Positions 15,545 through 64,000 of a stretch of DNA of 64,000 bases are shown one piece after another. The stretch is from a virus. Each line of letters opens with the position of its first letter. Positions within the stretch are counted from its first letter, which is position 1. Made by a program: the position numbers and the translations under genes. The notes under the pieces are model-generated. The model made no database searches, was not told where the DNA came from, and was given only the letters and a program-made list of their open reading frames with translations. Where the stretch lies: positions 64,001-128,000 of IMG/VR virus record IMGVR_UViG_3300032092_000004. One strand, written 5' to 3'.

Positions 15545-15702
15545 AATAAAGATACGATGTCTTTAATAAACGATACAATACCGTAGATACCAAAAAAGAA
15601 AAATATCCCACCACCAATTAAAACGAATCTTTGGGTGTTCTGTACTTGTTTACTTTCTTCACAAGTTTTACATTTTACTTCTGTTGCTTTTTCCTTTTCC
15701 AT
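15541..15702 (-). CDS. small CxxC and TM protein (not in ORF track)
   Basis: [16 protein letters not shown]...[22 protein letters not shown]. Confidence 0.55.
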
Positions 15703-15710
15703 ATAATAAA

Positions 15711-16223
15711 TTATAATACAATGGTTTTAATATGAAAATAGTTTTCCAACATTACTTTCTTCTGTTGGGGTTTGTTTTTGTTGAAGAATCTAAGATAATT
15801 ACCATCTAATGAATAAGTACTAGTCGGAACTACGTAAAGATTATCTCTACGAGTGGATTTCTCAAGTATAAATTCTATATAATCAAATACCTCTTCGTCG
15901 AAATTATCTTCATCTCTGAAGACAAACTTCAAACGATCACCTTGTGGATACCCTTCAAAAGAATTTAAGATTTTTCTATATTTTAACTCTATAACTTGTG
16001 ATAAAATGTTGTTTGGGACAGCAACTCTTTCGTGTGTTAAAGTGTCAGAATCAATTGAGTCTAAAATCGCACTTCGTATGAAATTAAAATTTCTGTTACC
16101 CATTCTATCAATTGTTTGATGAGTTGAAGCATAAAATGAATCACCTTCAGGACTGATAAATAATAAATCCTCCATATCGGCTTGCTCAACTATAATTGAT
16201 CTTAAAATTTGAAACATTTTCAT
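15711..16223 (-). CDS. hypothetical protein with leader-like N-terminus
   Basis: start MKMFQILRSIIVEQ just after a TATTTATT motif. Confidence 0.6.
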   Translation of the reverse strand: MKMFQILRSIIVEQADMEDLLFISPEGDSFYASTHQTIDRMGNRNFNFIRSAILDSIDSDTLTHERVAVPNNILSQVIELKYRKILNSFEGYPQGDRLKFVFRDEDNFDEEVFDYIEFILEKSTRRDNLYVVPTSTYSLDGNYLRFFNKNKPQQKKVMLENYFHIKTIVL

Positions 16224-16291
16224 ATTAGAATAAATAGTTGTAAAATGAAAATACAATTGATTAGTCGTCTTGTTTTTACTATCTTTATTAC

Positions 16292-17131
16292 ATGTTAAGT
16301 TATATTGGTGGAAAAAGTAAAATTGGTAAATGGATTGTTCCATTCTACGATAAAGATATGGAGGTTTATGTAGAAACTTTTGGCGGAATGTTTTGGTGTT
16401 TTTTTAATATGGACCTGAAACAGTTCCCAAACCTTAAAAAAGTCGTTTATAATGACTTTAACCCGCTGAACTACAACCTCTTCAAATGCGTTCAAAACCC
16501 AACTGAACTATTGAAAGCGATAAACGCAATTGATTGTCAAAAGTTGGGTGAGGAACCAACCCCACCAATATATAAAGAACAATTTGTAAGCTTTCAGGCT
16601 GAATTATTTGGTGAAAATTTCAGCGTAGAACCTGGCAATTATGAAGTTGCCGCTAAATATGTGTACATTCTAACACAAGTCTTTAGTGGGTCAAAACCTG
16701 AAACATCAAACTTTATTGATCTTAAAGGAAAGTATAAATCAAAATATCTTACCTTTAGAGATAAGTTATCAAAACCTGATTGGATTGATCATTTCCTTAA
16801 AATTACAGAAGTAGAGAACATGGACTTTGCGGATGTAATTGAGAAATACGACTCACCGTCTACTTACATATATTTAGACCCACCATACTGGAAAACAGAG
16901 AATTACTACTCCAACCACGACTTTGATCGTCAAGATCATGAACGTTTGGCTAATGTACTACATGGAGTTCAAGGTAAATTTTCTTTATCTTACTATGACT
17001 TTGAATTACTTCACGAATGGTTCCCCGAAGACCAATACACTTGGGTTAGAAAAGAGTTCGCCAAAGCGGCTTCGGCTAAGAAAGGGGAGAAACAAAATAT
17101 GGGGGAAGAATTATTGATAATGAATTATTAA
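16292..17131 (+). CDS. DNA adenine methyltransferase (Dam/D12 class)
   Basis: YIGGKS, ETFGG, VYND, catalytic DPPY. Confidence 0.88.
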   Translation: MLSYIGGKSKIGKWIVPFYDKDMEVYVETFGGMFWCFFNMDLKQFPNLKKVVYNDFNPLNYNLFKCVQNPTELLKAINAIDCQKLGEEPTPPIYKEQFVSFQAELFGENFSVEPGNYEVAAKYVYILTQVFSGSKPETSNFIDLKGKYKSKYLTFRDKLSKPDWIDHFLKITEVENMDFADVIEKYDSPSTYIYLDPPYWKTENYYSNHDFDRQDHERLANVLHGVQGKFSLSYYDFELLHEWFPEDQYTWVRKEFAKAASAKKGEKQNMGEELLIMNY

Positions 17132-38262: not shown

Positions 38263-38682
38263 ATGGAAAAAGTATTATATATCGTTAGAGGAATACCGGG
38301 TAGTGGAAAATCCACATTGGCAAAAAGATTGGTTGGTGAAGATTTTTTGGTTTGCGAAGCCGATAAATATTTTATCAATGAAGAAAATGGTAAATATGAA
38401 TTCGATATTTCAAAAATAAGAGACGCTCATAAATGGTGTCAAAATTTAGTTGAAACTTACATGAGGGATAGTCTAATTAATGACCAGTATTATCGTGAAA
38501 TTGCGGTATCCAACACATTTACACAGGAATGGGAAATGGAACCGTATTTTGAATTGGCTAAAAAATATGGGTATAAAGTATTTTGTGTTGTTGTTGAAAA
38601 TAGACATGGTGGTAAAAATCAACATGATGTTCCTGAAGAAAAGATTGAGTTAATGAAAGAAAGATTTGAAATAAAATTATAA
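38263..38682 (+). CDS. polynucleotide kinase-like P-loop protein (AAA_33)
   Basis: RGIPGSGKS, EAD.YF, VSNTF, HDVP. Confidence 0.8.
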   Translation: MEKVLYIVRGIPGSGKSTLAKRLVGEDFLVCEADKYFINEENGKYEFDISKIRDAHKWCQNLVETYMRDSLINDQYYREIAVSNTFTQEWEMEPYFELAKKYGYKVFCVVVENRHGGKNQHDVPEEKIELMKERFEIKL

Positions 38683-39335
38683 TGAAGTTTGATAAAATAT
38701 TAACAACAGGTAAAGTGTGGGTTACATCGGATCCACACTATAACCACAAAAATATTTGTAGGGGAGTCACCAATTGGCGAACAAAAGATGGACTTGTACC
38801 TGATTTGTCAACAAGGGATTTCCCAACATTAGAACTAATGAACTCAACATTAGTAGAAAATATCAATGCAAAAGTTGGTCAGGATGATACTTTAATTATT
38901 TTGGGTGATGTGGCTTTTGGCGGATTTGAAAATATTGGAATTTTCTTAAACAGATTGGTATGTAAAAACATTCACTTGGTTCTTGGGAATCACGATCACC
39001 ACATTAGAAACAACAGAGATAACATCAAAGATATGTTTATATCTGTTAGTGATTACTTACAGGTTAATATTTTTGGGGTTGACTTTGTAATGACTCACTA
39101 CCCATTTGAAAGTTGGAATGGTCTTAACAAAGGTGTTATTCACCTTCACGGACACGTTCATTTACCTATGAATAAAAAGTGGGGTAAAGGTAAACGATTG
39201 GATGTTGGTGTTGATGGAAACAACTTACAACCGTATAGTATTACTGAGATTGTTCACATGATGGACAAACGAGAAATTGCATCTCAGATGGACGATGATC
39301 ACCATTTAGACGATTTAGTTGGGGTTGTAGGATAA
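38682..39335 (+). CDS. calcineurin-like metallophosphoesterase
   Basis: SDPH, LGD, GNHD, HYP, HGHVH, DVGVD. Confidence 0.88.
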   Translation: MKFDKILTTGKVWVTSDPHYNHKNICRGVTNWRTKDGLVPDLSTRDFPTLELMNSTLVENINAKVGQDDTLIILGDVAFGGFENIGIFLNRLVCKNIHLVLGNHDHHIRNNRDNIKDMFISVSDYLQVNIFGVDFVMTHYPFESWNGLNKGVIHLHGHVHLPMNKKWGKGKRLDVGVDGNNLQPYSITEIVHMMDKREIASQMDDDHHLDDLVGVVG

Positions 39336-39361
39336 ACTACAACTCCAACATATTTATTGTT

Positions 39362-40609
39362 ATGAGAAATATTGTTATTACCGAAAGTCAATTAAAATTA
39401 ATTACAGAAGCTTTAGGCGTTCCTGATTATATTTTAGATGCGGCTGAGATGTTATATGATGTTGTTGAAAAAGACATCAAATCAATAGATAGTGTTGAAG
39501 ATGAATATGAATTCGATGGTGAGATTGAATTTGAGTTAGGTGATAAGAAAAAAATCAAAATTGATTCTTATGAATTAAAAGTAGAAATAGAAAAAGTAGA
39601 AGGTCACGGAGATGGAGTGATAGACATCATCTCAATGGGTATGTCTGGTGGGTTTGGATTTAACAGAGATGTTTATATGAAAGAAACTCAACCATCGACA
39701 ACTTTGGAATTAACAATAACATTTGCGGTTGGCGAAAATTGGGAACCTGAACAACTAATTAAAAAAATGGAGGAAGAAAGAGATGAATATGTTGCATCTT
39801 TGGCTCATGAAATTAAACACAAATACGACAAACAATCAAAAAAGTTTGGTTTAATCGGTCCTGATGCTACATATCAAGCAACACAAAGAAGGGGTAATTT
39901 TGGAATACCAGTATTAGATAGAGTTTTCTTTAGGTATATGTATTATATCCACGGTATTGAAAACCTCGTTAGACCCGTTGAGGTTGCATCTTCAATGAGA
40001 AGTAAAAACGTTACAAAATCACAATTTTTGGATTTCTTACAAAACAATAGAGTATTCAGAGAGTTGGTGGAAATTAAAAAATTCACATTTGAGGATTTTA
40101 TTAATGAGTTAAAAGAAAATGAAGATAGGTTAGATGCTCTTATTGAACATATAGGTGAAGATCCATCTGAAATGACTTTAGATGAGAAAATTAATAGAGT
40201 ATTGGAAGTTGCTTACATTGATTTAGTTAATAATAGAATGGAGATTTTTGTTATAATGACACAACATCATATGGATGATATGATAAAATTTGGGGGACAA
40301 CTTGGGATGTTACCGCCAAATTTAGATGATGAGGTAAAAAAATTAGAAAAAACAGATGAGATTAGACGGAAGTTTTTATCTTATGTGACGAAATATGAAA
40401 AGAACCCAACTAAATTCTTTGAAGATGAAATCGAGAACTTTCAATACATTGCAAACAAAATGTTAAAGAAAATATCAAAACTATATTCTATGGCAAAAGA
40501 CGACGAACAAGTTAGTGAATCAATTCTAAATTGGGATCTTCACCAACAAATCATGGAAAAAAAATACGGTACAAGAAAAATAGAAACCGAATACAAGTTT
40601 AAGAGATAA
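39362..40609 (+). CDS. leader-bearing protein with HExxH zincin-like motif
   Basis: IVITESQLKLITE; LAHEIKH. Confidence 0.6.
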   Translation: MRNIVITESQLKLITEALGVPDYILDAAEMLYDVVEKDIKSIDSVEDEYEFDGEIEFELGDKKKIKIDSYELKVEIEKVEGHGDGVIDIISMGMSGGFGFNRDVYMKETQPSTTLELTITFAVGENWEPEQLIKKMEEERDEYVASLAHEIKHKYDKQSKKFGLIGPDATYQATQRRGNFGIPVLDRVFFRYMYYIHGIENLVRPVEVASSMRSKNVTKSQFLDFLQNNRVFRELVEIKKFTFEDFINELKENEDRLDALIEHIGEDPSEMTLDEKINRVLEVAYIDLVNNRMEIFVIMTQHHMDDMIKFGGQLGMLPPNLDDEVKKLEKTDEIRRKFLSYVTKYEKNPTKFFEDEIENFQYIANKMLKKISKLYSMAKDDEQVSESILNWDLHQQIMEKKYGTRKIETEYKFKR

Positions 40610-40654
40610 CCCCAAAATCTTTATTTATTGATATTTTTTTCATATTTTAATAAT

Positions 40655-41020
40655 ATGAGAAAATTATTCATACCAATATTATTTTTAACTTTATCGTTAA
40701 CAATTCCTGGTGAAGTATATAAAGGTACCGCATCATACTATGGTCAGAACTATACAGGAAGATTAACAGCATCGGGTGAAAAGTTCCATAAAGATAGTTT
40801 ATTCGCAGCACATAAAACCTTGAAGTTCGGAACTTTAGTTAAAGTTATTAATCTGATTAATGATTCTGTTAGGTTTGTAAAAATAAACGACAGATTACCA
40901 AAATCATCCAAACACATAATAGATTTATCATATGGTACCGCAAAAGAATTGAATTTTATTAAACGAGGTATCGTTCCTGTATCTATTGAAATTGTTGGAT
41001 CACTACCAATTAAAAAATAA
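40655..41020 (+). CDS. rlpA: RlpA-like lytic transglycosylase (DPBB fold)
   Basis: GTASYYG, TASGE, AAHKTL.FGT, INDR, IIDLS. Confidence 0.88.
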   Translation: MRKLFIPILFLTLSLTIPGEVYKGTASYYGQNYTGRLTASGEKFHKDSLFAAHKTLKFGTLVKVINLINDSVRFVKINDRLPKSSKHIIDLSYGTAKELNFIKRGIVPVSIEIVGSLPIKK

Positions 41021-41057
41021 TTTTGTTTTATTAGGAAAGTTTTCTTATCTTTGTTCT

Positions 41058-41285
41058 ATGTGGACAACTAAAGAAACTAAAAGAGAATATCGTGGTTTTG
41101 AGATCATCAAGTATGAAGGATCCAAGATGAAGGATTATTTTAGAAAAAAAGACCCAAGGACATTTCAAAATGGTGATAGTAAGTTCACCAAGTGGCATTC
41201 CTACGAAGTAACCATTGATGGTGTTAAATATGATTTTGACAAGTTAAAGGATTCAAAAGAATTTATTGACTCAAAGTTAAAATGA
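41058..41285 (+). CDS. hypothetical protein
   Basis: ATG 4 nt after TATCTTTG. Confidence 0.6.
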   Translation: MWTTKETKREYRGFEIIKYEGSKMKDYFRKKDPRTFQNGDSKFTKWHSYEVTIDGVKYDFDKLKDSKEFIDSKLK

Positions 41286-41473
41286 AAAAACCTTGTAAAG
41301 AATGTCCACATGTGATTCGTAATCGTCATAATGATATGATTGTTGACTTTGGTCGTAGAACTGGTAAAAAACATAATTGTCATATGACCGAAGGAGTTAA
41401 AGATTTGTGGAATGTTAAAGATGGAAAATTAGAATGTTATGGATCAAAGAGAGATAATTTACGGAGTGTGTGA
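41282..41473 (+). CDS. small Cys/His metal-binding protein
   Basis: PCKECP, CH, CYG. Confidence 0.55.
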   Translation: MKKPCKECPHVIRNRHNDMIVDFGRRTGKKHNCHMTEGVKDLWNVKDGKLECYGSKRDNLRSV

Positions 41474-41660
41474 TAAGACAGGATCTTGTGATTCCTACTT
41501 CGGATTCTTCAAAACCAAAGAAGATGCTGAACACGAGGTATCTGTACAGGCAAAACGACTCAAAGAAGATTTGGGAATGATGGATATTGACATCCGATCA
41601 GACCGAGCGTTATACAATGGTAAATTAGTAATAGTAATTCATTCATATGTATTGAGATGA
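41439..41660 (+). CDS. hypothetical protein, paralogue of 44519..44764
   Basis: IYGV.D....CD.YFG.FK...DA shared. Confidence 0.6.
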   Translation: MDQREIIYGVCDKTGSCDSYFGFFKTKEDAEHEVSVQAKRLKEDLGMMDIDIRSDRALYNGKLVIVIHSYVLR

Positions 41661-42019
41661 AAAAAATAGAGACAAAATTTGGAACCTATATGGAAAGAGA
41701 AGATGACCCTACAAAATTGACTGGTGATAAAATCAAGGTCTTTGTAGAAAGATTAAAAAAACTTGGAATTGAAATTAAACTTAAGGGTAATTTCCCTTGG
41801 GTTTATATTGATGAAATCTGTGGTATTAAAGTGAATGAGAGGTTATATGGTAATCACGGTTTTACTTTGATATTCTTACCGGGTAGGATCGATAGTCCAC
41901 CATCTGATTTTACGGATATTACTGAGACTTTCAAACTAATACGAAAGTATAGTAGAAAAGCTTTGTTGATTCAGATGATGAAAGACGATGAAAAAGATGG
42001 TATGTATGATGTTGAATGA
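41657..42019 (+). CDS. hypothetical protein
   Basis: ORF; GNFPWVY. Confidence 0.6.
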   Translation: MKKIETKFGTYMEREDDPTKLTGDKIKVFVERLKKLGIEIKLKGNFPWVYIDEICGIKVNERLYGNHGFTLIFLPGRIDSPPSDFTDITETFKLIRKYSRKALLIQMMKDDEKDGMYDVE

Positions 42020-42395
42020 GTTAAGGGTAGGTAGTATTGTGACCCACCCACTTTTTGAAACTCCAACTAATGTTAAGGCGATTGCATTTAACGGACTTTA
42101 TATTGGAACCAAAGATGGTTTACCACTACATATTGACGACTTTAACCCCGTTAAAATAACTGATGAGGTTTTGGAGTTACTTCATTTTGTTAAGATGAAA
42201 GACACGGCACTTGGTATTGGTGAGTTTGATTGGTGGGAAACAGATGATATATCACTTACACACATACATAAAGGTTTATACGGCATCGAAGGATTAAGTG
42301 GTATTAAACCGATGAAATATGTTCACGAATTACAAAATGCGTATTTTGTGATAACAGGAAAAGAATTGAATACAGAAAAATTATTATATTTGTAA
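42006..42395 (+). CDS. hypothetical protein of a common Bacteroidota-phage type
   Basis: ELRVG..P..IT.E.L and KYVHELQN.YF..TG.EL. Confidence 0.6.
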   Translation: MMLNELRVGSIVTHPLFETPTNVKAIAFNGLYIGTKDGLPLHIDDFNPVKITDEVLELLHFVKMKDTALGIGEFDWWETDDISLTHIHKGLYGIEGLSGIKPMKYVHELQNAYFVITGKELNTEKLLYL

Positions 42396-42397
42396 AA

Positions 42398-42808
42398 ATG
42401 GAAAAAGCAAGAATTTATTTAGATGATGTAAGAACACCTGTTGATCCAAGTTGGACAGTAGTTCGTTCTTATGACGAGTTTGTAAGTAAGGTAAAAGAGA
42501 TTGGTTTAGAAAATATTGAACTAATTTCTTTGGACCACGATTTGGGTGATAGTGCAATGAAAGAATGGTTACATGGTGTTGTTAGAAACTATGAAATCAA
42601 CTATGATAACATCACCGAAAAGACTGGTATGGATTGTGCCAAGTGGTTGGTTAATCAGTGGATGGATGGTAAACCACTTGTTGATGTTGTAGTACATTCA
42701 CACAATGCTATTGGTGCGGGTAATATGATGGGATATATTAACAATTATCGACACATCAACAAATTACCACAAAATTGTAACAGAGTATTTTGGGAACACA
42801 CAATATAA
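42398..42808 (+). CDS. cyclic-phosphate-processing receiver-like domain protein
   Basis: IYLDDVRTP, VRSYDEF, ISLDHDLG, TG.D...W, HS.N. Confidence 0.8.
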   Translation: MEKARIYLDDVRTPVDPSWTVVRSYDEFVSKVKEIGLENIELISLDHDLGDSAMKEWLHGVVRNYEINYDNITEKTGMDCAKWLVNQWMDGKPLVDVVVHSHNAIGAGNMMGYINNYRHINKLPQNCNRVFWEHTI

Positions 42809-42818
42809 AAAAATAGTT

Positions 42819-43082
42819 ATGGAATTAGAAAAATTTGAACAAGCAAAAAAAGTTAAAGAAAACCTTGATAGATTGGAAAGACAGAAGCGTAAATTGGAAT
42901 CCGCTTTAGAATCTTGTTCTTTAAATGTGACGATTGAATTTAAACCGTCAAAGGTATTTCTCTCAAGAAAAGATGAGGTTAGTGTTTATAGTAAAGACGC
43001 CATTAAAGAAATGATATCTAAAGAACTTGACAGGTTGAATAGTGAAATAGAGTTAGTAAAAGAAGAATTTGAAAACGTATAA
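42819..43082 (+). CDS. hypothetical coiled-coil protein
   Basis: ORF. Confidence 0.6.
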   Translation: MELEKFEQAKKVKENLDRLERQKRKLESALESCSLNVTIEFKPSKVFLSRKDEVSVYSKDAIKEMISKELDRLNSEIELVKEEFENV

Positions 43083-43085
43083 GAA

Positions 43086-44219
43086 ATGGAAAATTTAAAT
43101 AGTGTATGTTATGTTGGTGTGATCGGTGAGATTCGACCAATAGAAGGGGCAGATAACATAGAACTTGCAATGGTTGGTGGATGGCATGCCATTACCAAAA
43201 AAGGCGAATACAGTGTAGGTGATAAGGTTGTTGTTGCAACTACCGATGCGGTAATCCCTGTTGAGTTATCTGACTTGATGGGTGTGACTGGATACTTGAG
43301 AAAAGGTCAAAGAGTTAGAACTGTGAAATTACGTGGAGTTTACTCTGAGTGCTTGTTAATACCATTCAAATACTTAGCGCCAAAATCTTTGGAGAACAAT
43401 GTAAGTGAAGGTCACGATATGATGGGTATCTTGGGTGTTACCAAATACGAACCACCAGTTAAGATGGTTGAGATGAGTGTTGGAGGTAGAAAATTCAAAT
43501 ACCACCAAAACCCTAACTTCCATGTTTACCACAAGTTCCCTAACTTGAAGAATGTGCCTGAGTTATTTACCGAGGAGGATAGAGTATCTATCACTCGTAA
43601 ACTTCACGGAACCAATGCTCGTTACGGTATAGTTAGAAAGAAAAAACTTTCTATCTTGGATCGTATCAAAAAATTCTTTGGAAACAAATGGGTTGAGTTT
43701 GATTATGTTTATGGATCTCATAATGTTGAAAAAGGATCTACTTCTCAAGGGTTCTACTCTACTGATGTTTGGAGAACCGCCGATGGGGACTACAACATCC
43801 AAGAAAAGTTGTGGAACTACGTAAAAAAACATTACACGCCTAAAATGTTAGGAAGTGGTATTGTTATCTATGGTGAGATCTACGGACACGGAATCCAAAA
43901 GAACTACGATTATGGTTTAACTGATATTCGTTTTGCGGGATTTGACGTTGAGGTTAATGGTGAATACTTACCGTTCTTTACTGAGAGAGGTATATTCGAA
44001 GAGTTAGATTTACCGAAGGTTGATGTGCTATATACAGGTCCTTGGGAGAAAGAAACTCAAGATAGTTTTGTATTCAATAACTTTATAGAAGGAACTAAAG
44101 TTCCGCACGAAGGTATTGTTGTAAAATGCTTGAGTGGTGATCGTCACAAAGTAGCGAAGGTAATCAATCCTGATTACCTCATCTACGGAGAGAAGAATAA
44201 TGTTGGTGACTCCCATTGA
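43086..44219 (+). CDS. RNA ligase, DRB0094 family
   Basis: N-terminal OB (IEGADNIE, VKLRGVYS), motif I KLHGTN, YGEIYG, FDV, EGIVVK. Confidence 0.88.
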   Translation: MENLNSVCYVGVIGEIRPIEGADNIELAMVGGWHAITKKGEYSVGDKVVVATTDAVIPVELSDLMGVTGYLRKGQRVRTVKLRGVYSECLLIPFKYLAPKSLENNVSEGHDMMGILGVTKYEPPVKMVEMSVGGRKFKYHQNPNFHVYHKFPNLKNVPELFTEEDRVSITRKLHGTNARYGIVRKKKLSILDRIKKFFGNKWVEFDYVYGSHNVEKGSTSQGFYSTDVWRTADGDYNIQEKLWNYVKKHYTPKMLGSGIVIYGEIYGHGIQKNYDYGLTDIRFAGFDVEVNGEYLPFFTERGIFEELDLPKVDVLYTGPWEKETQDSFVFNNFIEGTKVPHEGIVVKCLSGDRHKVAKVINPDYLIYGEKNNVGDSH

Positions 44220-44237
44220 TGGAGTCACCTTTTTTTA
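44205..44237 (+). terminator. intrinsic terminator
   Basis: GGTGACTCC..GGAGTCACC followed by T run. Confidence 0.75.
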
Positions 44238-44258
44238 TTATTATTTAAAAAAAAAATT

Positions 44259-44519
44259 ATGGCAATATTTTGGACACAAGCAGAAGTAGATTTATCGGTT
44301 GATGAGATCTACGAAAATTTATCAGATCGTGAAGTTCTGAAGTTGGTTGATTTATTTGTTGAAGAAGGTTTGGTTATCTCAACTAACACAAGTAAAAATG
44401 AAAGTATGAGTTTTTTAGATGAAGAGTGGAAGAAGACACTATTGAATCTGATGAACAACAGACACAGGCTTTCAAATGAAGATGAAGAAACAATTAAGAC
44501 ACTCGCTAACAAACTATAA
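44259..44519 (+). CDS. hypothetical protein
   Basis: ORF. Confidence 0.6.
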   Translation: MAIFWTQAEVDLSVDEIYENLSDREVLKLVDLFVEEGLVISTNTSKNESMSFLDEEWKKTLLNLMNNRHRLSNEDEETIKTLANKL

Positions 44520-44764
44520 TGACAAAAGAAAACGACCTGATCTACGGGGTCTACGACAGAACAAGAGGAGTGGGTGGTTGTGACGACTACTTTGGGTACT
44601 TCAAAAAAGAATCAGACGCGAGAACAGAAATGAAAGCTCAATTTGAACACTTAAAAACAAAAAACCCAAAAGAAACTCTGAAACTCCATAAAGATAGAGT
44701 TGTGAAAGTAAAAGATAAAACAGAAGAAATATTAATAATTATACACCCAATTTTAGTAAGATGA
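44519..44764 (+). CDS. hypothetical protein, paralogue of 41439..41660
   Basis: shared motif. Confidence 0.6.
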   Translation: MTKENDLIYGVYDRTRGVGGCDDYFGYFKKESDARTEMKAQFEHLKTKNPKETLKLHKDRVVKVKDKTEEILIIIHPILVR

Positions 44765-45750
44765 GAGAGGACCAAATTCAAGACTACATCCAAGAGTTAA
44801 AGATGATTGAAGAAATGGAAAATATTAGAATACCAAACGATTATATTGAAACAACTAGTTATGATGATGACAAGATTGTAACTAATTCACCAACATGTTG
44901 GGGAACATTACAAGATGAAGAGTTTGTACCAGCATTTAAATCAGTTCCTAAAGTACCATCCGGTATTTATGAAATTGTTTGGAACAGACAATTAAATCAA
45001 CACACATTAAAAAAACAACCATTCAAGACAGATGAGTTGTATCAGTTACCTTCTTATGAAATTATAGATATCCTTAAAGACATTCAAAATTTTTGGGATC
45101 GTAAAGACAAGTATAAAGAATATAGTTTTGTTCACAAAAGAGGTATTTTAATGTATGGTGAACCAGGTTGTGGTAAGTCAGGTATTATTCAGTTAATCTC
45201 AAAACAATTAATTGAAAATGATGGTATTATCATTAACATTAAAGATCAAGAAGATATTGATTACTTCATGGATTTTATTGCGACATTCAGAAAGATTGAA
45301 CCAGATCGACCATTGATTGTTTTATTAGAAGACATAGACTCAATTGCCGGTGAGAATAGCCACTCAACAAGTAGATTGTTAAACATCTTAGATGGTGTAA
45401 AACAGATTGAAGATGTGGTGTATATTGCAACAACCAACTATCCTGAAAAACTACAAGATCGTATTACTAACAGACCATCTCGTTTCGATAGAAGATACAA
45501 AGTTGAATTACCAAACGATGAGATTCGTGAAGCATATATTCGTCACAAATTAACAGACGAAGATATAAAAAATGTTGATGTCCAAGAATGGGTAAAAAGA
45601 ACAGACGGAATGTCACTTTCACACTTGAAAGAAGTTGTAATTTCAACTATAGTTATGGGAAGAGAATTTGAGGAAGTGATGGATAACCTCGAAGGATTAA
45701 AGAAAGCACCATCAATTAAAGGATCAGGAAAAGTAGGATTTGGACGATGA
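44761..45750 (+). CDS. AAA+ ATPase
   Basis: GEPGCGKS, LLEDID, ATTN, RPSRFD. Confidence 0.9.
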   Translation: MREDQIQDYIQELKMIEEMENIRIPNDYIETTSYDDDKIVTNSPTCWGTLQDEEFVPAFKSVPKVPSGIYEIVWNRQLNQHTLKKQPFKTDELYQLPSYEIIDILKDIQNFWDRKDKYKEYSFVHKRGILMYGEPGCGKSGIIQLISKQLIENDGIIINIKDQEDIDYFMDFIATFRKIEPDRPLIVLLEDIDSIAGENSHSTSRLLNILDGVKQIEDVVYIATTNYPEKLQDRITNRPSRFDRRYKVELPNDEIREAYIRHKLTDEDIKNVDVQEWVKRTDGMSLSHLKEVVISTIVMGREFEEVMDNLEGLKKAPSIKGSGKVGFGR

Positions 45751-45899
45751 AAAAAGGAATTTATTATGTGCCATTATTTTTAATTTTGTTATTCGTAATG
45801 GGAGGAACATTTTATGTTGAGGATCGATTAGGATTTGCAATGTCTACATTATCATTGTTATTATTAGGTGAAGTTTATTATTTAAGATTTTTAAAATGA
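45747..45899 (+). CDS. small two-TM protein (not in ORF track)
   Basis: MKKGIYYVPLFLILLFVMGG...; ATGA overlaps at both ends. Confidence 0.55.
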   Translation: MKKGIYYVPLFLILLFVMGGTFYVEDRLGFAMSTLSLLLLGEVYYLRFLK

Positions 45900-46063
45900 A
45901 GAATTTTAGTTTAATTATTGGATTGATATTATTATCAAGTTGTAAAACATCAAAAAGTAACTGTGATGCATACTCATCATACGAGATAAAAGTAGAACAC
46001 TGCCATATTGAGGAAGAAAATTATTGTTATTATACAGTTGATACAATTCGCTTGACCAAGTAA
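45896..46063 (+). CDS. small lipoprotein (not in ORF track)
   Basis: MKNFSLIIGLILLSSCKTSKSNCDAY. Confidence 0.6.
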   Translation: MKNFSLIIGLILLSSCKTSKSNCDAYSSYEIKVEHCHIEEENYCYYTVDTIRLTK

Positions 46064-46080
46064 AAAAGATTACTTATACT
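46052..46080 (+). promoter_or_regulatory. sigma70-like promoter TTGACC-17-TATACT
   Basis: canonical spacing, 19 nt upstream of 46100. Confidence 0.5.
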
Positions 46081-46099
46081 TTCAAAACAAAAATAAAAC

Positions 46100-46534
46100 A
46101 TGACAATTAAACAGGCACTTAAACAGAAAAACAAACTGGTTAAAAACATTGCTGAGAACACGAAGTTGATGCAACAACACAACTCAGTTGAGGTTGGTAA
46201 CCAAAGACCATACAGCACGGTGGTGTTGTATAAAGAAATCCAAAAAGACACCAAAGAATTGGCGTCTTTGAAGGCAAAAATCCACATCGCAAACGCAGAG
46301 GTGATGGAAGACATCTTTTGGATGTCAGAAATGAAATCCACAATTGCGGCCCTAAAGAAAATGGACTGTACTGAAGGAAAATCAAATCGTGACCGTTACC
46401 GAATGGAAAGTGAAGTGGTTTTAACTTCTGAAATCTCTTTAGTGAATAGAAATCAAGAGATCAAATTGTTGGAATCAAAAATTGAAGAAATTCAAGATAA
46501 GTTGGACACCTTCAACGTAACCACTGAAATTTAA
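46100..46534 (+). CDS. DIP1984-like (DUF6847-like) helical hairpin protein
   Basis: MTIKQALK.K..L start, LK.KI..AN centre, IQDKLD.FN.TT.I end. Confidence 0.65.
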   Translation: MTIKQALKQKNKLVKNIAENTKLMQQHNSVEVGNQRPYSTVVLYKEIQKDTKELASLKAKIHIANAEVMEDIFWMSEMKSTIAALKKMDCTEGKSNRDRYRMESEVVLTSEISLVNRNQEIKLLESKIEEIQDKLDTFNVTTEI

Positions 46535-46713
46535 TATGGTTTGTAGATAGGGTTAAAAAGTTATGGTTGTTCTACACTTAGTATCCGACTGGATGGATAA
46601 TTGATGAAGATAACGAACTGACATTAAACGAAATTTCAAATATTCAAAAGTCATTTGATTAAAACTTAAAACTCTCTTTTGAACCTATTTTCGACTCTTG
46701 AAACAAATCATAT
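46534..46713 (+). ncRNA. candidate ~180-nt ncRNA closed by long-range stems
   Basis: 46534-46544 pairs with 46703-46713; 46545-46560 pairs with 46676-46690; internal TATCC/GGATA hairpin; A-rich repeats. Confidence 0.6.
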
Positions 46714-46714
46714 G

Positions 46715-46829
46715 AACCCCTATCCTTGTGGTGGGGGTTTTTAAAAGACCCCATCCTTAGTGGTGGGCTTTTAGGACCGTTATCCGTTAGGGTAACGATT
46801 TAAAGGGGGAATTCGCTACTCCCCCTTTT
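46715..46829 (+). terminator. cluster of four hairpins, terminators likely
   Basis: AACCCC..GGGGTT plus T run; near-duplicate second hairpin; CGTTATCC/GGGTAACG; AAAGGGGGA/TCCCCCTTT. Confidence 0.6.
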
Positions 46830-46852
46830 CTATTTGGCATATACCATTATCA

Positions 46853-46884
46853 TTTGTATATGTGGGGAATTTTATTTATATTTG
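46853..46884 (+). promoter_or_regulatory. Bacteroidota -33/-7 promoter TTTG-20-TATATTTG
   Basis: both consensus boxes with typical spacing. Confidence 0.65.
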
Positions 46885-46930
46885 TGGTAATTATGTTGGC
46901 TATTTTTAAAAAAAATCAAAAACTCAAACG

Positions 46931-47518
46931 ATGAAAGTTTTATTTTTAGATAATGATGGTGTAATCTGTCTCTCAAATAATTGGGGTGGAAGAACAAAAA
47001 AATGGGCTAAATACCGAAGTGAATATCCTGACAGTAGTAAAGAAAAAAAAGAGGCTCCTGTTGATTATCGCTTTGATGATTTTGATAAAAAGGCTGTTAA
47101 GGTATTAAATGAGATCGTCGAAGAAACAGGATGTGAGATTGTTGTTAGCTCTGATTGGAAATTACACGCGACACTTGAAGAACTTGGTGATTACTACGAA
47201 AGTCAAGGAATTATCAAACGACCAATCGCGTTAACACCAAACATTCAGAATTGTACCGCTCATAGCGATTTATTTATATGGTCACCACAATGGGAGTTAG
47301 AACAAACACGAACTCTTGAGATTAGACAATACTTACACGATCATCCTGAAGTTACTCATTGGGTTTCAGTTGATGATTTGAACATGGGTAAGAATGGTGA
47401 ACCTTGGAAAGACGCTTGGGCAATTGATAATTTTGTTTTAACACCTAAATCAAATGAGGGTATCAAACAAAGTGGAGTAAAAGAAAAAATTATTAAATTT
47501 TTAAATGATGGTGAATAA
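46931..47518 (+). CDS. HAD domain protein, Swiss-Army-Knife RNA-repair type
   Basis: FLDNDGV, IVVSSDW, EI..YL, VDD. Confidence 0.8.
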   Translation: MKVLFLDNDGVICLSNNWGGRTKKWAKYRSEYPDSSKEKKEAPVDYRFDDFDKKAVKVLNEIVEETGCEIVVSSDWKLHATLEELGDYYESQGIIKRPIALTPNIQNCTAHSDLFIWSPQWELEQTRTLEIRQYLHDHPEVTHWVSVDDLNMGKNGEPWKDAWAIDNFVLTPKSNEGIKQSGVKEKIIKFLNDGE

Positions 47519-47738
47519 AAAAATAAATGAGAAAGAATTATGGTGTGAGTACAGCAATATGCCATCACCTATTGCTTATGCTCAATGTGCTGACTACGAT
47601 AGTATGGGTAATCACGGAAGATTTCCAAAAATAAAAGATGAAAAAATAACTATCTTGAAAAGACTAATACAGAAATTAGCTCTTTGGGTATCATATAAAT
47701 TACCTAAGAGAAAAAGAAAAAGTATATGGGATCTATGA
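47505..47738 (+). CDS. hypothetical protein
   Basis: WCEYS.MPSP.AY motif. Confidence 0.55.
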   Translation: MMVNKKINEKELWCEYSNMPSPIAYAQCADYDSMGNHGRFPKIKDEKITILKRLIQKLALWVSYKLPKRKRKSIWDL

Positions 47739-48046
47739 AGAACATAAAACAAATATTTAAGACTAATACCCATCTGATGGATCATCCTGAAGTTCAGGAA
47801 TTGATCGATTATTGTGTTGAGTTAGAAGGTCAAGTTGTTGAAAAAAAAATTGATGATACTTATAGTAAAGAAGAGATTTATCTTCAGATGCTTAAGGACA
47901 TCTATGATAGTTGTGATAAAACTTTGACTGATGATCAGCTGTCAGAAAGGTTTAAGGAGACACCAAGAGTGGACTTCAAGCAAGCTGTGATAAATCTAAA
48001 AAAATATATGGGAGCCGTATCACAAATGTACGGGTTTATGTTATGA
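47726..48046 (+). CDS. hypothetical protein
   Basis: ORF. Confidence 0.6.
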   Translation: MGSMKNIKQIFKTNTHLMDHPEVQELIDYCVELEGQVVEKKIDDTYSKEEIYLQMLKDIYDSCDKTLTDDQLSERFKETPRVDFKQAVINLKKYMGAVSQMYGFML

Positions 48047-48360
48047 GTGAAAATACAAAACAAACAGTTAAATTAATTATGGTTGAGGAAAGACCATATG
48101 TTGTGTCCTTAGACAAAGTAGAAATTGGTGATAAAGTTATTGTTACGGTGAACGGTCAATACCCATCGATTGTTGAATGTGAAAACCAAACAGTTCTCAC
48201 ATTGTTAACTGATTCTAAACTATCATTAACCAAGGCTTTCAAAATCTTTATGGAACCTGAGAACATTAAATTCCAACCAGACCAAATTGAAAAGATTTTG
48301 GAAAATGATGGATTGATGGAGGTTGAGTTTGATAATGGCGTGTATAAGTATAGTTTATGA
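48043..48360 (+). CDS. hypothetical protein
   Basis: ORF. Confidence 0.6.
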   Translation: MSENTKQTVKLIMVEERPYVVSLDKVEIGDKVIVTVNGQYPSIVECENQTVLTLLTDSKLSLTKAFKIFMEPENIKFQPDQIEKILENDGLMEVEFDNGVYKYSL

Positions 48361-48447
48361 TATTTACAACACAAACCAAATAAGCGTTACTTCAAATCAT
48401 ACTTTATGTTTTAATTTGAAGGACAAATAAAATTTAAATTTTTAAAG

Positions 48448-48669
48448 ATGAAAACACTTGATTTACATGGAGTTAAACATGCAGATGTTCCAAAATTGAT
48501 GGATCAATTTTTATGGGAACAGATGAATAAAAAAACTATAGAAGTTGAGATCATTACAGGATTGAGTACGACCATGAGAGAAATTGTAATAAAAAATTTA
48601 AAAGATTATGATTTTATTTACAACGATGGGTGGAACAATCCTGGTAAGGTATTGGTTAAATTAACATAA
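48448..48669 (+). CDS. stand-alone Smr-domain protein
   Basis: TLDLHG, IITG, NPG. Confidence 0.75.
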   Translation: MKTLDLHGVKHADVPKLMDQFLWEQMNKKTIEVEIITGLSTTMREIVIKNLKDYDFIYNDGWNNPGKVLVKLT

Positions 48670-61900: not shown

Positions 61901-62640
61901 TGAAAAGAATACTTTACATATTATCACTTTTATTGATTGGATGTAAAACAGTACAAGCCCAACCCCCTCAAAAAGGAGGGGGTATTGGCTCTGTTAAGAC
62001 AGAACAATATGTTGCTGATTTTGAAAAGAAACAATCAATAGACTCGGTTGCTGATTACGACGGATCAATTCAGGTTCCCATCCAATTATTAAAGATTGGT
62101 ATCAACGAAGAACTTTATGAATTATATCCTGAGTTAAAAGATAAAAGAGTAGGTCTTGGCGTAACGAATATCGTAATCGAATATTTGGAATACACTAACA
62201 GATTTATTTTTACCGAAGAAAAGGAAGAGATCAAACAAAGAATGATTGCTCAAGACAAAGCATCAGACAAGGGAGTATCTTCAAACAAAATCGAAGTGAA
62301 AGGTAATGTTGTATTAGCTAAATACTTTGTTTATATTGAGGTGTATGATTTCTCGGTATCTGAGGACGAAGTTGTAAAAGTTAATGGACAACAAACTGTA
62401 AATCAAACTACAAGATTAGGTCTTCAGATCAAATTTGTAGATGCTGAAACAAGTCAAGTGATTGTAGGATCAGGACTTGGAGAAGCCGTAACAATTAAAA
62501 CAACATCAATCTTGGGTGATATCTCAGATGATGTTAAATTCAATCAATCAACCGTAGGTATATCTACAAAAAAAGCTTTAGAGACAGCGTCATCAAGAGT
62601 TGTAACTAGACTTATATCAAAAGGTGTATTTCCAAAGTGA
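61900..62640 (+). CDS. CsgG/HfaB-like lipoprotein
   Basis: LLIGC lipobox; GVTNIV.EYL..TNRF...E; IKFVDAET.QV..GSG.G. Confidence 0.65.
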   Translation: MKRILYILSLLLIGCKTVQAQPPQKGGGIGSVKTEQYVADFEKKQSIDSVADYDGSIQVPIQLLKIGINEELYELYPELKDKRVGLGVTNIVIEYLEYTNRFIFTEEKEEIKQRMIAQDKASDKGVSSNKIEVKGNVVLAKYFVYIEVYDFSVSEDEVVKVNGQQTVNQTTRLGLQIKFVDAETSQVIVGSGLGEAVTIKTTSILGDISDDVKFNQSTVGISTKKALETASSRVVTRLISKGVFPK

Positions 62641-64000
62641 GAATAAACATTTTAATATCTTTGTTATTTGTCTTATTTAGTTTTTTCAATCTAAACGCAC
62701 AGACTTATAACTATTCTTACACCGATCCTTGTACAGGAAATGTAAAAAATATCATAGTCCCCATCAATGGTTCAGTCACGGTGGGGTACTATGGTTTTGT
62801 CGAGAACTTTACTCAACAACAATTTACCGATGGAACTTTTGAAACTTGGACTAACCAAGTTTTTTCGCAATATCAAGGATCTCCTTGTTCAGAAATAGTA
62901 GGACTTGGTGGTCAGATAAACATGGCTCAAGATGTTGCTTTAAATACAATAGGTATTATCAATTCACTATCGTCTTTAATGGACATATCAAATGGGGCAA
63001 CAGATTTTCTTAGCGGTAGTTTAACCGCAGCATCTAACTCTTCTAATACCAATAATTCAGGTAATAAGAAGAATGGGAATAGTTCCCAAAATAATGGAAG
63101 TGGAAATAATAATAACGTTACAACAACAAATACTAATAACTCCACAACCAATAACAATCAAAACCAAAATAATGGAACAAGTAACACTACTGAAGGAAGT
63201 CAAACCACTTCTGGAACAAATGAAACAAGTTCAAACAACGGAGGAAATGGAACCGCTAATACAAATGTTGGAACTCAAGGTACAACATCAACAGGAGGCT
63301 CTACAACTCAAAGTGGATCAAATGAAAATGGAAATTCACAGGCTGTGTCGCCTATAAACAATCAAAACACTAATACGAATGAAAACAATAGCAATACTAC
63401 TGTCGGTAGCAATACTGGGGAGTCTAGTGGGAATGGGACTAGTGGGAATGGTGAAGGAAATAATCAAACGAACCAAGAAGTAACGACTAATGGTTCTAAC
63501 GGTAATGGTAATTCTGGTGTTGGGAATAATAATGAAAACCCACCTAGTGGTGAGGAAACTACAACCCAAACAGAAGAACAAGGTGGTGGACAAACCAACG
63601 TTACACAAGGAGCAACAAAAACAGTAAATCAGAATAGGGAAGGTGGAAAACCCACAGTCATCGCGTCAAGTGACTTTGTGGGTTTTAACTTTCAAAACTC
63701 TGAAGTTAAAACAGGATTGAAATTAACAGGAGGATATCATAACCTGCGTTGGGATGGTGAAACTGCTCGTGGTGGTTTAGTTGATTACGTGTCAGCACAA
63801 AAGGGGCCAAACATGACAGGATATCACGCATGGATCAACAAAAAAAGTGTTGGACTTTTATCGGGAACTTTATCTTTAGGATTTGAAGGTAGGGGATCTG
63901 TCTATGGAACTTTAGCGGGTGGACAAATGTTCATGTTCCCAAAGATCCCAAGTCTTAAAGCGGTTTATATGGGAACAGTATCATACGGACAAGTTTATAA
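62637..64000 (+). CDS. large secreted or outer-membrane protein with Asn/Thr/Gly-rich linker (partial, not in ORF track)
   Basis: GTG start overlapping the previous TGA; MRINILISLLFVLFSFFNLNA-QTYNYSYTDPC; appears open to the window end; beta-strand-like C-terminal part. Confidence 0.7.
   Translation, partial: MRINILISLLFVLFSFFNLNAQTYNYSYTDPCTGNVKNIIVPINGSVTVGYYGFVENFTQQQFTDGTFETWTNQVFSQYQGSPCSEIVGLGGQINMAQDVALNTIGIINSLSSLMDISNGATDFLSGSLTAASNSSNTNNSGNKKNGNSSQNNGSGNNNNVTTTNTNNSTTNNNQNQNNGTSNTTEGSQTTSGTNETSSNNGGNGTANTNVGTQGTTSTGGSTTQSGSNENGNSQAVSPINNQNTNTNENNSNTTVGSNTGESSGNGTSGNGEGNNQTNQEVTTNGSNGNGNSGVGNNNENPPSGEETTTQTEEQGGGQTNVTQGATKTVNQNREGGKPTVIASSDFVGFNFQNSEVKTGLKLTGGYHNLRWDGETARGGLVDYVSAQKGPNMTGYHAWINKKSVGLLSGTLSLGFEGRGSVYGTLAGGQMFMFPKIPSLKAVYMGTVSYGQVY

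What the first reader, a model, noticed from the sequence alone, without database searches (positions are those of the whole stretch)
46052..46829. DIP1984-like gene plus end-paired ncRNA with repeated AAA motifs: candidate protein-RNA module
Seen: a self-contained unit of promoter (TTGACC-17-TATACT), a 144-aa all-helical ORF, and a ~180-nt non-coding segment starting at the stop codon. Its ends pair: ATATGGTTTGT/ACAAATCATAT (11 bp) and AGATAGG..AAAAG/CTTTT..CCTATTT. The large internal loop carries about five short units (ATTAAAC, TTTCAAA, ATTCAAAA, ATTAAAAC, TTAAAAC), and terminator hairpins follow. This is the longest non-coding gap in the region. Knowledge: the ORF ends resemble the functionally obscure DIP1984/DUF6847 family. 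Inference: the protein may oligomerise on the repeated single-stranded motifs of its own cis-encoded RNA (RNP scaffold, sponge or type III TA-like logic). Its position between an RNA ligase and a HAD RNA-repair gene hints at a role in RNA-based conflict.
Basis: partly seen in the sequence, partly recalled or inferred. Interest (0 to 1): 0.82.

Follow-up and report, generated by a model that had tools for sequence, protein, structure and literature searches.

The report
Helical protein with 7-base-repeat RNA
Right behind a small helical-protein gene of unknown function, this lake jumbo phage encodes a conserved, uncatalogued folded RNA of about 180 bases carrying a row of 7-base units; gene and RNA are gained and lost together in phages and also pair up in bacteria and hospital plasmids, so they are probably two halves of an undescribed protein-RNA particle.

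Summary
Confirmed, with corrections. ORF 46100-46534 has the DIP1984 fold (3KDQ: TM 0.79, Z 13.3) but falls below the family cut-offs. The 180-nt element behind it (46534-46713) is a real structured RNA by comparison: its end stems covary in 30 relatives (14 pairs changed on both sides, covariation score above all 500 shuffles), it follows the gene in essentially every phage homologue examined, all 29 viral contigs found by the RNA pattern carry the gene, and 21 syntenic relatives lack both. The loop holds about seven Y-Y-A units spaced 7-8 nt plus a GAT block. Planctomycete and canonical bacterial DIP1984 genes (including Acinetobacter 'septicolysin' plasmids) have their own structured downstream RNAs with the same periodic tract. 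No Rfam match, no paper found. Linker bases are not hypervariable, arguing against a VIPR-type guide; gene order argues against type III toxin-antitoxin. Best reading: protein dimers assemble on the periodic tract, forming an accessory RNP; a link to RNA-damage conflict is weak. Expression and binding are not shown. This scan noted similar gene-plus-heptad-RNA pairs on at least eight other genomes.

The parts
46052..46080 (+). promoter-like site (TTGACC-17-TATACT)
   Evidence: pattern before 61/74 homologues vs 17/150 control genes; inferred, no start mapped
46100..46534 (+). 144-aa DIP1984/DUF6847-fold protein gene
   Evidence: Pfam PF20935 E 0.0013 and NF038048 E 4e-7, both below cut-off; AF2 pLDDT 91; 3KDQ TM 0.79, Z 13.3 over 140 residues
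46534..46713 (+). predicted ~180-nt non-coding RNA, ends paired
   Evidence: conserved in homologues; covariation; no Rfam match
46534..46544 (+). P1 5' strand (pairs with 46703-46713)
   Evidence: 95% of cells paired in 30 sequences, 4 pairs with double-sided change; 13 G-U vs 0 A-C in inner pairs
46549..46559 (+). P2 5' strand (pairs with 46688-46698)
   Evidence: 84.6% paired, 6 pairs with double-sided change
46596..46617 (+). block of 3-4 GAT-type units, 6-7 nt apart
   Evidence: near-invariant G/A/T columns in alignment A4; also in distant loci L230, L233-L235
46624..46673 (+). periodic tract: about seven Y-Y-A(A) units spaced 7-8 nt
   Evidence: autocorrelation peaks at lags 7, 8, 15; low entropy at unit cores
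46688..46713 (+). 3' strands of P2 and P1
46714..46741 (+). terminator-like hairpin closing the unit
   Evidence: a stable hairpin follows the element in 61/74 homologues, with varying sequence

Best explanation
A two-part accessory module: one transcript from the module's own promoter carries the gene and, behind it, a self-closing ~180-nt RNA ending at a terminator. The end stems hold open a large loop whose conserved feature is a Y-Y-A word every 7-8 bases. The helical protein forms dimers through its long middle helix, leaving a conserved basic N-terminal helix and conserved Arg/Tyr/His/Asn residues free; several protein units most likely bind the units one by one (TRAP/HutP-like repeat reading) and assemble into a ribonucleoprotein of fixed size with the RNA as ruler and scaffold. 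Shown: fold, covariation, periodicity, joint gain and loss. Modelled: self-association. Inferred: expression, RNA binding, stoichiometry. The biological job is most likely in phage-host or element-host conflict, possibly as a decoy or sensor for RNA-cutting enzymes (about 0.3 for that specific role).
For: Element follows the gene in 119/131 loci by HMM (49 used to build it), and the 12 misses show paired ends or the tract by inspection. 29/29 viral contigs found by an RNA-only pattern are contigs that carry the gene. Of 23 new syntenic loci, 21 lack the gene and lack the RNA; the 2 with the gene have it. Covariation: phage clade 14 pairs, canonical bacterial clade 17 of 19 pairs, covariation score 0/500 shuffles in both; cognate end-pairing -21.1 vs cross-paired -15.5 kcal/mol. 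The 7-nt tract recurs in three clades whose proteins and RNA scaffolds are otherwise very different. The RNA survives insertion of an ORF between it and the gene (L148, L152, L160) and occurs twice behind one gene in L237, so it behaves as a unit. Four-copy model: ipSAE 0.60 vs best control 0.02 (mark reached by 20/30 solved pairs and 1/23 single chains; runs agree in at least 81% of contacts, pLDDT at least 84; may reflect memory of 3KDQ); invariant K4, K8, K10, K79, Y100, F138 are not among the named interface residues.
Against: No expression data and no binding data. Net charge of the protein is near neutral (pI 7.8). Unit spacing is irregular (5-8 nt). Protein-RNA similarity correlation (rho 0.81) is expected from linkage alone. 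The phage and canonical bacterial RNAs do not match each other's models, so their homology rests on position and on the periodic tract. Covariation controls are not tree-aware.
Confidence: 0.65

Rival explanations
1. The element is only a structured 3' untranslated region that the protein binds (or not) to control stability or translation of its own mRNA.
For: It starts at the stop codon and no internal promoter is evident; it lies between stop and terminator in nearly all loci.
Against: Stays intact when an unrelated ORF is inserted before it; tandem duplicate in L237; elaborate multi-helix form in bacteria; unit cores more conserved than silent sites. An autoregulatory loop with no other output would be odd.
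Confidence: 0.13
2. The RNA is a decoy or sponge for a host RNA-binding protein or nuclease (the bacterial form carries a tRNA T-loop-like hairpin), and the phage protein is only its chaperone or shield.
For: T-loop-like hairpin in most canonical bacterial copies; neighbours include rtcB/rtcA and tRNA arrays; distant phage clades keep RNA-repair genes nearby.
Against: The phage form here has no T-loop; module dispensable for the repair cluster; most bacterial neighbours are unrelated.
Confidence: 0.12
3. A VIPR-like RNA-guided system: the protein clamps the fixed words and the variable linker bases spell a gapped target.
For: Alternating fixed and variable bases, minimal phage locus, analogous to vrRNA (10.64898/2026.04.26.720920); the two tandem copies in L237 differ in their tracts.
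Against: Linkers are as conserved as or more conserved than fourfold-degenerate sites (0.86 vs 0.77, 0.72 vs 0.56, 0.62 vs 0.52, 0.58 vs 0.58); nearly fixed among planctomycete genera; one copy in the genome fragment; protein is not a RAMP; irregular period.
Confidence: 0.06
4. Type III-like toxin-antitoxin pair (RNA neutralises a toxic protein).
For: Patchy spread on phages and small plasmids; repeat-bearing RNA next to a small gene.
Against: RNA lies after, not before, the gene; no long tandem direct repeats; no toxin or nuclease fold.
Confidence: 0.04

Closest known systems
DIP1984 family / DUF6847 (PF20935, NF038048, PDB 3KDQ), often annotated 'septicolysin' on Acinetobacter plasmids
   Same: Same fold over the whole chain (TM 0.79; Z 13.3, rmsd 3.1 A, 140 residues); canonical members also have a structured downstream RNA with a 7-nt tract.
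   Different: 15-16% identity, below both cut-offs; no RNA partner or function found in the papers searched.
TRAP-trp leader and HutP-hut leader of Bacillus (own knowledge)
   Same: Oligomeric protein reading short, evenly spaced single-stranded words.
   Different: Unrelated folds; those are 5' leaders controlling termination; here the RNA is a self-closing element behind its own gene.
VIPR (10.64898/2026.04.26.720920)
   Same: Minimal phage module of one protein plus an RNA with fixed words alternating with variable bases.
   Different: Period 7-8 not 5, word Y-Y-A not GGY, linkers not hypervariable, no RAMP fold, RNA closed by long end stems.
Ro60/Rsr with Y RNA (PMC4201824 abstract)
   Same: Cis-encoded ncRNA partner with paired ends, sometimes tRNA-like and near RNA-repair genes.
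   Different: No TROVE protein in the module, no Y RNA match in Rfam.
Period-7/8 'beads-on-a-string' arrays of 10.64898/2026.10.21.760802 (clusters 8,581 and 156,623)
   Same: Fixed words alternating with variable 3-mers at period 7-8.
   Different: Those have a full reverse-complement copy of the array and no co-localised protein; here a protein is strictly linked and GAT-block pairing with the tract shows no cognate specificity; paper does not mention this family.

Membership tests
DIP1984/DUF6847 | Score above curated cut-off (PF20935 27 bits; NF038048 70 bits) | tested here: not met
   19.2 and 30.3 bits; a divergent clade
DIP1984/DUF6847 | DIP1984 (3KDQ) fold over the full length | tested here: met
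   Foldseek prob 1.00, TM 0.79; VIA Z 13.3 vs next 9.4; Atlas features 0.96 to DUF6847-bearing clusters
VIPR | RAMP/RRM protein | tested here: not met
   helical DIP1984 fold
VIPR | 5-nt GGY/NN repeats | tested here: not met
   period 7-8, Y-Y-A words
VIPR | hypervariable guide positions | tested here: not met
   linker identity at or above fourfold-degenerate sites
Type III toxin-antitoxin | antitoxin repeat array and terminator upstream of the toxin gene | tested here: not met
   RNA is downstream of the gene in all loci
Type III toxin-antitoxin | endoribonuclease toxin (ToxN/TenpN/CptN) | tested here: not met
   no such Pfam match; best fold is 3KDQ
Type III toxin-antitoxin | toxicity rescued by the RNA | not testable with these tools
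   needs a bench assay
Ro60-Y RNA | TROVE protein and Y RNA model match | tested here: not met
TRAP/HutP-type repeat readers | sequence-specific binding of oligomer to spaced words | not testable with these tools
   only periodicity and self-association model
Any Rfam 15 family | gathering score | tested here: not met
   0 matches in window and over the elements of 20 homologous loci

The most novel reading that the evidence does not exclude
The whole DIP1984/DUF6847 superfamily, from jumbo phages to Acinetobacter hospital plasmids, is the protein half of an undescribed class of ribonucleoprotein in which a helical protein polymerises on a 7-nt-register RNA tract to build a defined particle that acts in RNA-damage conflict (decoy, sensor or helper of repair), giving a function to a 15-year-old structural-genomics orphan.
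Probability: 0.4. Interest if true: 0.9.

Novelty: categorically new. Interest (0 to 1): 0.78.

Why it matters
It turns a widespread orphan protein family (about 1,700 clusters at 50% identity) with a solved structure and a misleading 'septicolysin' label into a directly testable protein-RNA system: two small parts, a defined RNA with a countable repeat register, and culturable carriers (A. baumannii AB5075 plasmid p2, Enterococcus plasmids, a Deinococcus radiodurans gene hit). A new way for a protein to read a periodic RNA would be of interest for RNP biology, phage-host conflict and possibly RNA scaffold engineering.

Tried and rejected
A published small-RNA list of A. baumannii ATCC 17978 (PMC5538643) has plasmid entries, but pAB1 and pAB2 of that strain do not carry the module: dead end. 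RNAalifold on the broad 49-sequence alignment gave no pairs because of misalignment, so model R1 is sequence-only; covariation was counted on the closer 30 sequences. Single-sequence folding of the element is not significant. Pairing of the GAT block with the tract: own -7.39, cross -7.39, shuffled -6.89 kcal/mol, no specific support. Contiguous target of the loop in the own genome: nothing on the complementary side beyond 12-nt chance hits. Other RNA copies in the genome fragment: only weak hits; the best (L199) lies in an open frame by inspection. Short peptides in the element: frames not conserved (indels of 1-2 nt). The gene after the RNA in L189 looked like a Ro60 start by eye but had no Pfam match: not claimed. 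PHROGs: no match. A canonical-type RNA pattern found nothing in viral contigs (narrow pattern).

Full report
Setting. The window lies in a 153-kb linear virus record, about 49% complete; close relatives reach 290-305 kb, so this is a jumbo phage, probably freshwater. The finding sits in a run of small co-oriented genes: RNA ligase (43086-44219), two small ORFs, an AAA ATPase, two small ORFs, the gene in question, then a HAD_SAK_2 phosphatase.

The protein. ORF 46100-46534 (144 aa) hits DUF6847 and NF038048 over its whole length but below their cut-offs. An AlphaFold model from 38 homologues (pLDDT 91) has three long helices and a beta-hairpin; its only clear structural match is DIP1984, PDB 3KDQ (TM 0.79; Z 13.3, rmsd 3.1 A, 140 residues). 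A profile finds 1,704 clusters at 50% identity. A four-copy model supports self-association through the middle helix (0.60 vs best control 0.02; reached by 20/30 solved pairs and 1/23 single chains; contacts agree at least 81%, pLDDT at least 84; possibly memory of 3KDQ). Invariant basic and aromatic residues of the N-terminal helix, hairpin and C-terminus are not among the named interface residues, which is compatible with, not proof of, an RNA-binding face.

The RNA is real by comparison. On its own the element folds no better than shuffles (z -1.23). But every phage homologue inspected, down to about 33-40% protein identity, has a 160-196-nt element with paired ends behind the gene. In 30 closer sequences the end helices are 86% paired, 14 pairs change on both sides, and percentage paired and covariation score exceed all 500 shuffles and all slid registers (controls not tree-aware). 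Inner P1 pairs show 13 G-U and no A-C, fixing the strand. Each element's 5' end pairs better with its own 3' end (-21.1 kcal/mol) than with that of others (-15.5). A promoter pattern precedes 61/74 homologues (control 17/150) and a stable hairpin follows 61/74.

Anatomy. P1 (46534-46544/46703-46713), a 4x4 internal loop, P2 (46549-46559/46688-46698), a variable small hairpin, a block of GAT units (46596-46617) and a tract of about seven Y-Y-A(A) units (46624-46673). Autocorrelation of the word peaks at lags 7, 8 and 15 (117, 88, 120 vs about 40 expected; sequences are related). Unit cores are more conserved than silent codon sites; linkers evolve at or below the silent rate, unlike the hypervariable NN of VIPR RNAs.

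Gene and RNA travel together. An RNA-only pattern finds 29 viral contigs, all already known to carry the gene. A search with the separate hairpin element downstream found 23 further loci from the same phage group: 21 lack the gene and also the RNA, though most keep the ligase/AAA/HAD neighbourhood; the two that have the gene have the RNA. In three loci an unrelated ORF is inserted between gene and RNA and the RNA is intact. The module is thus an accessory cassette, roughly 46052-46744.

The pairing is family-wide. Planctomycete homologues (about 30% identity) have a GC-rich end-paired element with a tract of the same kind of word at period 7. Canonical DIP1984 genes from metagenomes, Paracoccus, Mycobacterium, Enterococcus and Acinetobacter have a more elaborate RNA, usually with a T-loop-like hairpin, strong covariation (17 of 19 pairs, 0/500) and a tract of (T/G)YAC words at the same spacing. 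One genome has two RNAs in tandem behind one gene. The Acinetobacter gene, labelled septicolysin in some records, is on more than 300 plasmids together with its downstream segment. None of these elements matches Rfam; full-text searches for DIP1984, DUF6847, 3KDQ and the family accessions give one passing mention, and a recent non-coding survey does not name the family.

RNA-repair link. In close relatives HAD is within 3 kb in 27/46 loci and the ligase in 14/46, as are non-repair neighbours, i.e. synteny. In clades below 50% identity the neighbours still detected are mostly repair genes (kinase, phosphoesterase, ligase, HAD) in another order, but these are also the easiest to detect. In bacteria two loci lie directly before rtcA, one within rtcB-X-gene-RNA-rtcA, three lie beside tRNA genes, and most others have unrelated neighbours. 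The link is suggestive only.

Mechanism and verdict. The part of the RNA that survives across clades is the spaced word, while the scaffold is rebuilt; the simplest reading is that the cognate protein, an oligomer, reads the words one unit at a time and forms a particle of set size (0.65). A pure 3' regulatory element, a host-factor decoy, a VIPR-type guide and a type III pair are less likely for the reasons listed. Expression and binding could not be tested. It works most like TRAP/HutP-type repeat reading or VIPR assembly but belongs to neither. Earlier notes of this scan describe similar DIP1984-fold gene plus heptad RNA pairs on at least eight other genomes; they are unchecked and are not counted as evidence. 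What was tested here independently: covariation, joint gain and loss, the non-guide behaviour of linkers, and the extension to chromosomal and plasmid DIP1984 genes.

Noticed in passing
window 46745-46829: Three-hairpin element (about 85 nt, fold z -3.7) conserved almost base for base in 29 viral contigs, independent of the DIP1984 module and of the upstream gene; no Rfam match. Possibly a second small RNA.
   Followed up: partly
L254, L257, L265, L249: about 130-170 nt before the three-hairpin element: In many relatives lacking the module another conserved non-coding element of about 100 nt, with a tRNA T-arm-like hairpin and its own terminator, occupies the same slot; no Rfam match. The slot looks like a hotspot for exchangeable small RNAs.
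   Followed up: partly
L173:2474-3152 (A. baumannii plasmid p2AB5075): The gene often labelled 'septicolysin' is a DIP1984 family gene with the structured downstream RNA; the cytolysin label looks wrong.
   Followed up: partly
L175:681-4238: Acinetobacter operon rtcB - 166-aa unknown gene - DIP1984 - RNA - rtcA; the 166-aa protein has no Pfam or PHROG match.
   Followed up: partly
L237:1062-1486 (- strand): Two tandem, diverged copies of the canonical RNA behind one gene; the second lacks the T-loop hairpin.
   Followed up: partly
window 38263-48669: Dispersed RNA end-healing set: P-loop kinase-like and phosphoesterase-like ORFs, cyclic-phosphate receiver, DRB0094-type ligase, HAD_SAK_2.
   Followed up: partly
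window 15702-16292 and 62640-63073: Two longer gaps without ORFs of 45 aa or more (589 and 432 nt); no Rfam or tRNA match.
   Followed up: no
L075-L083, about 20-50 nt upstream of the start codon: Planctomycete homologues share a GAACC-N15-GTGTC motif upstream, resembling an ECF sigma promoter (from memory).
   Followed up: no
L230:505-3516: A distant homologue lies behind Band_7 and tRNA_bind genes, families known from RNA-repair neighbourhoods (own knowledge).
   Followed up: no
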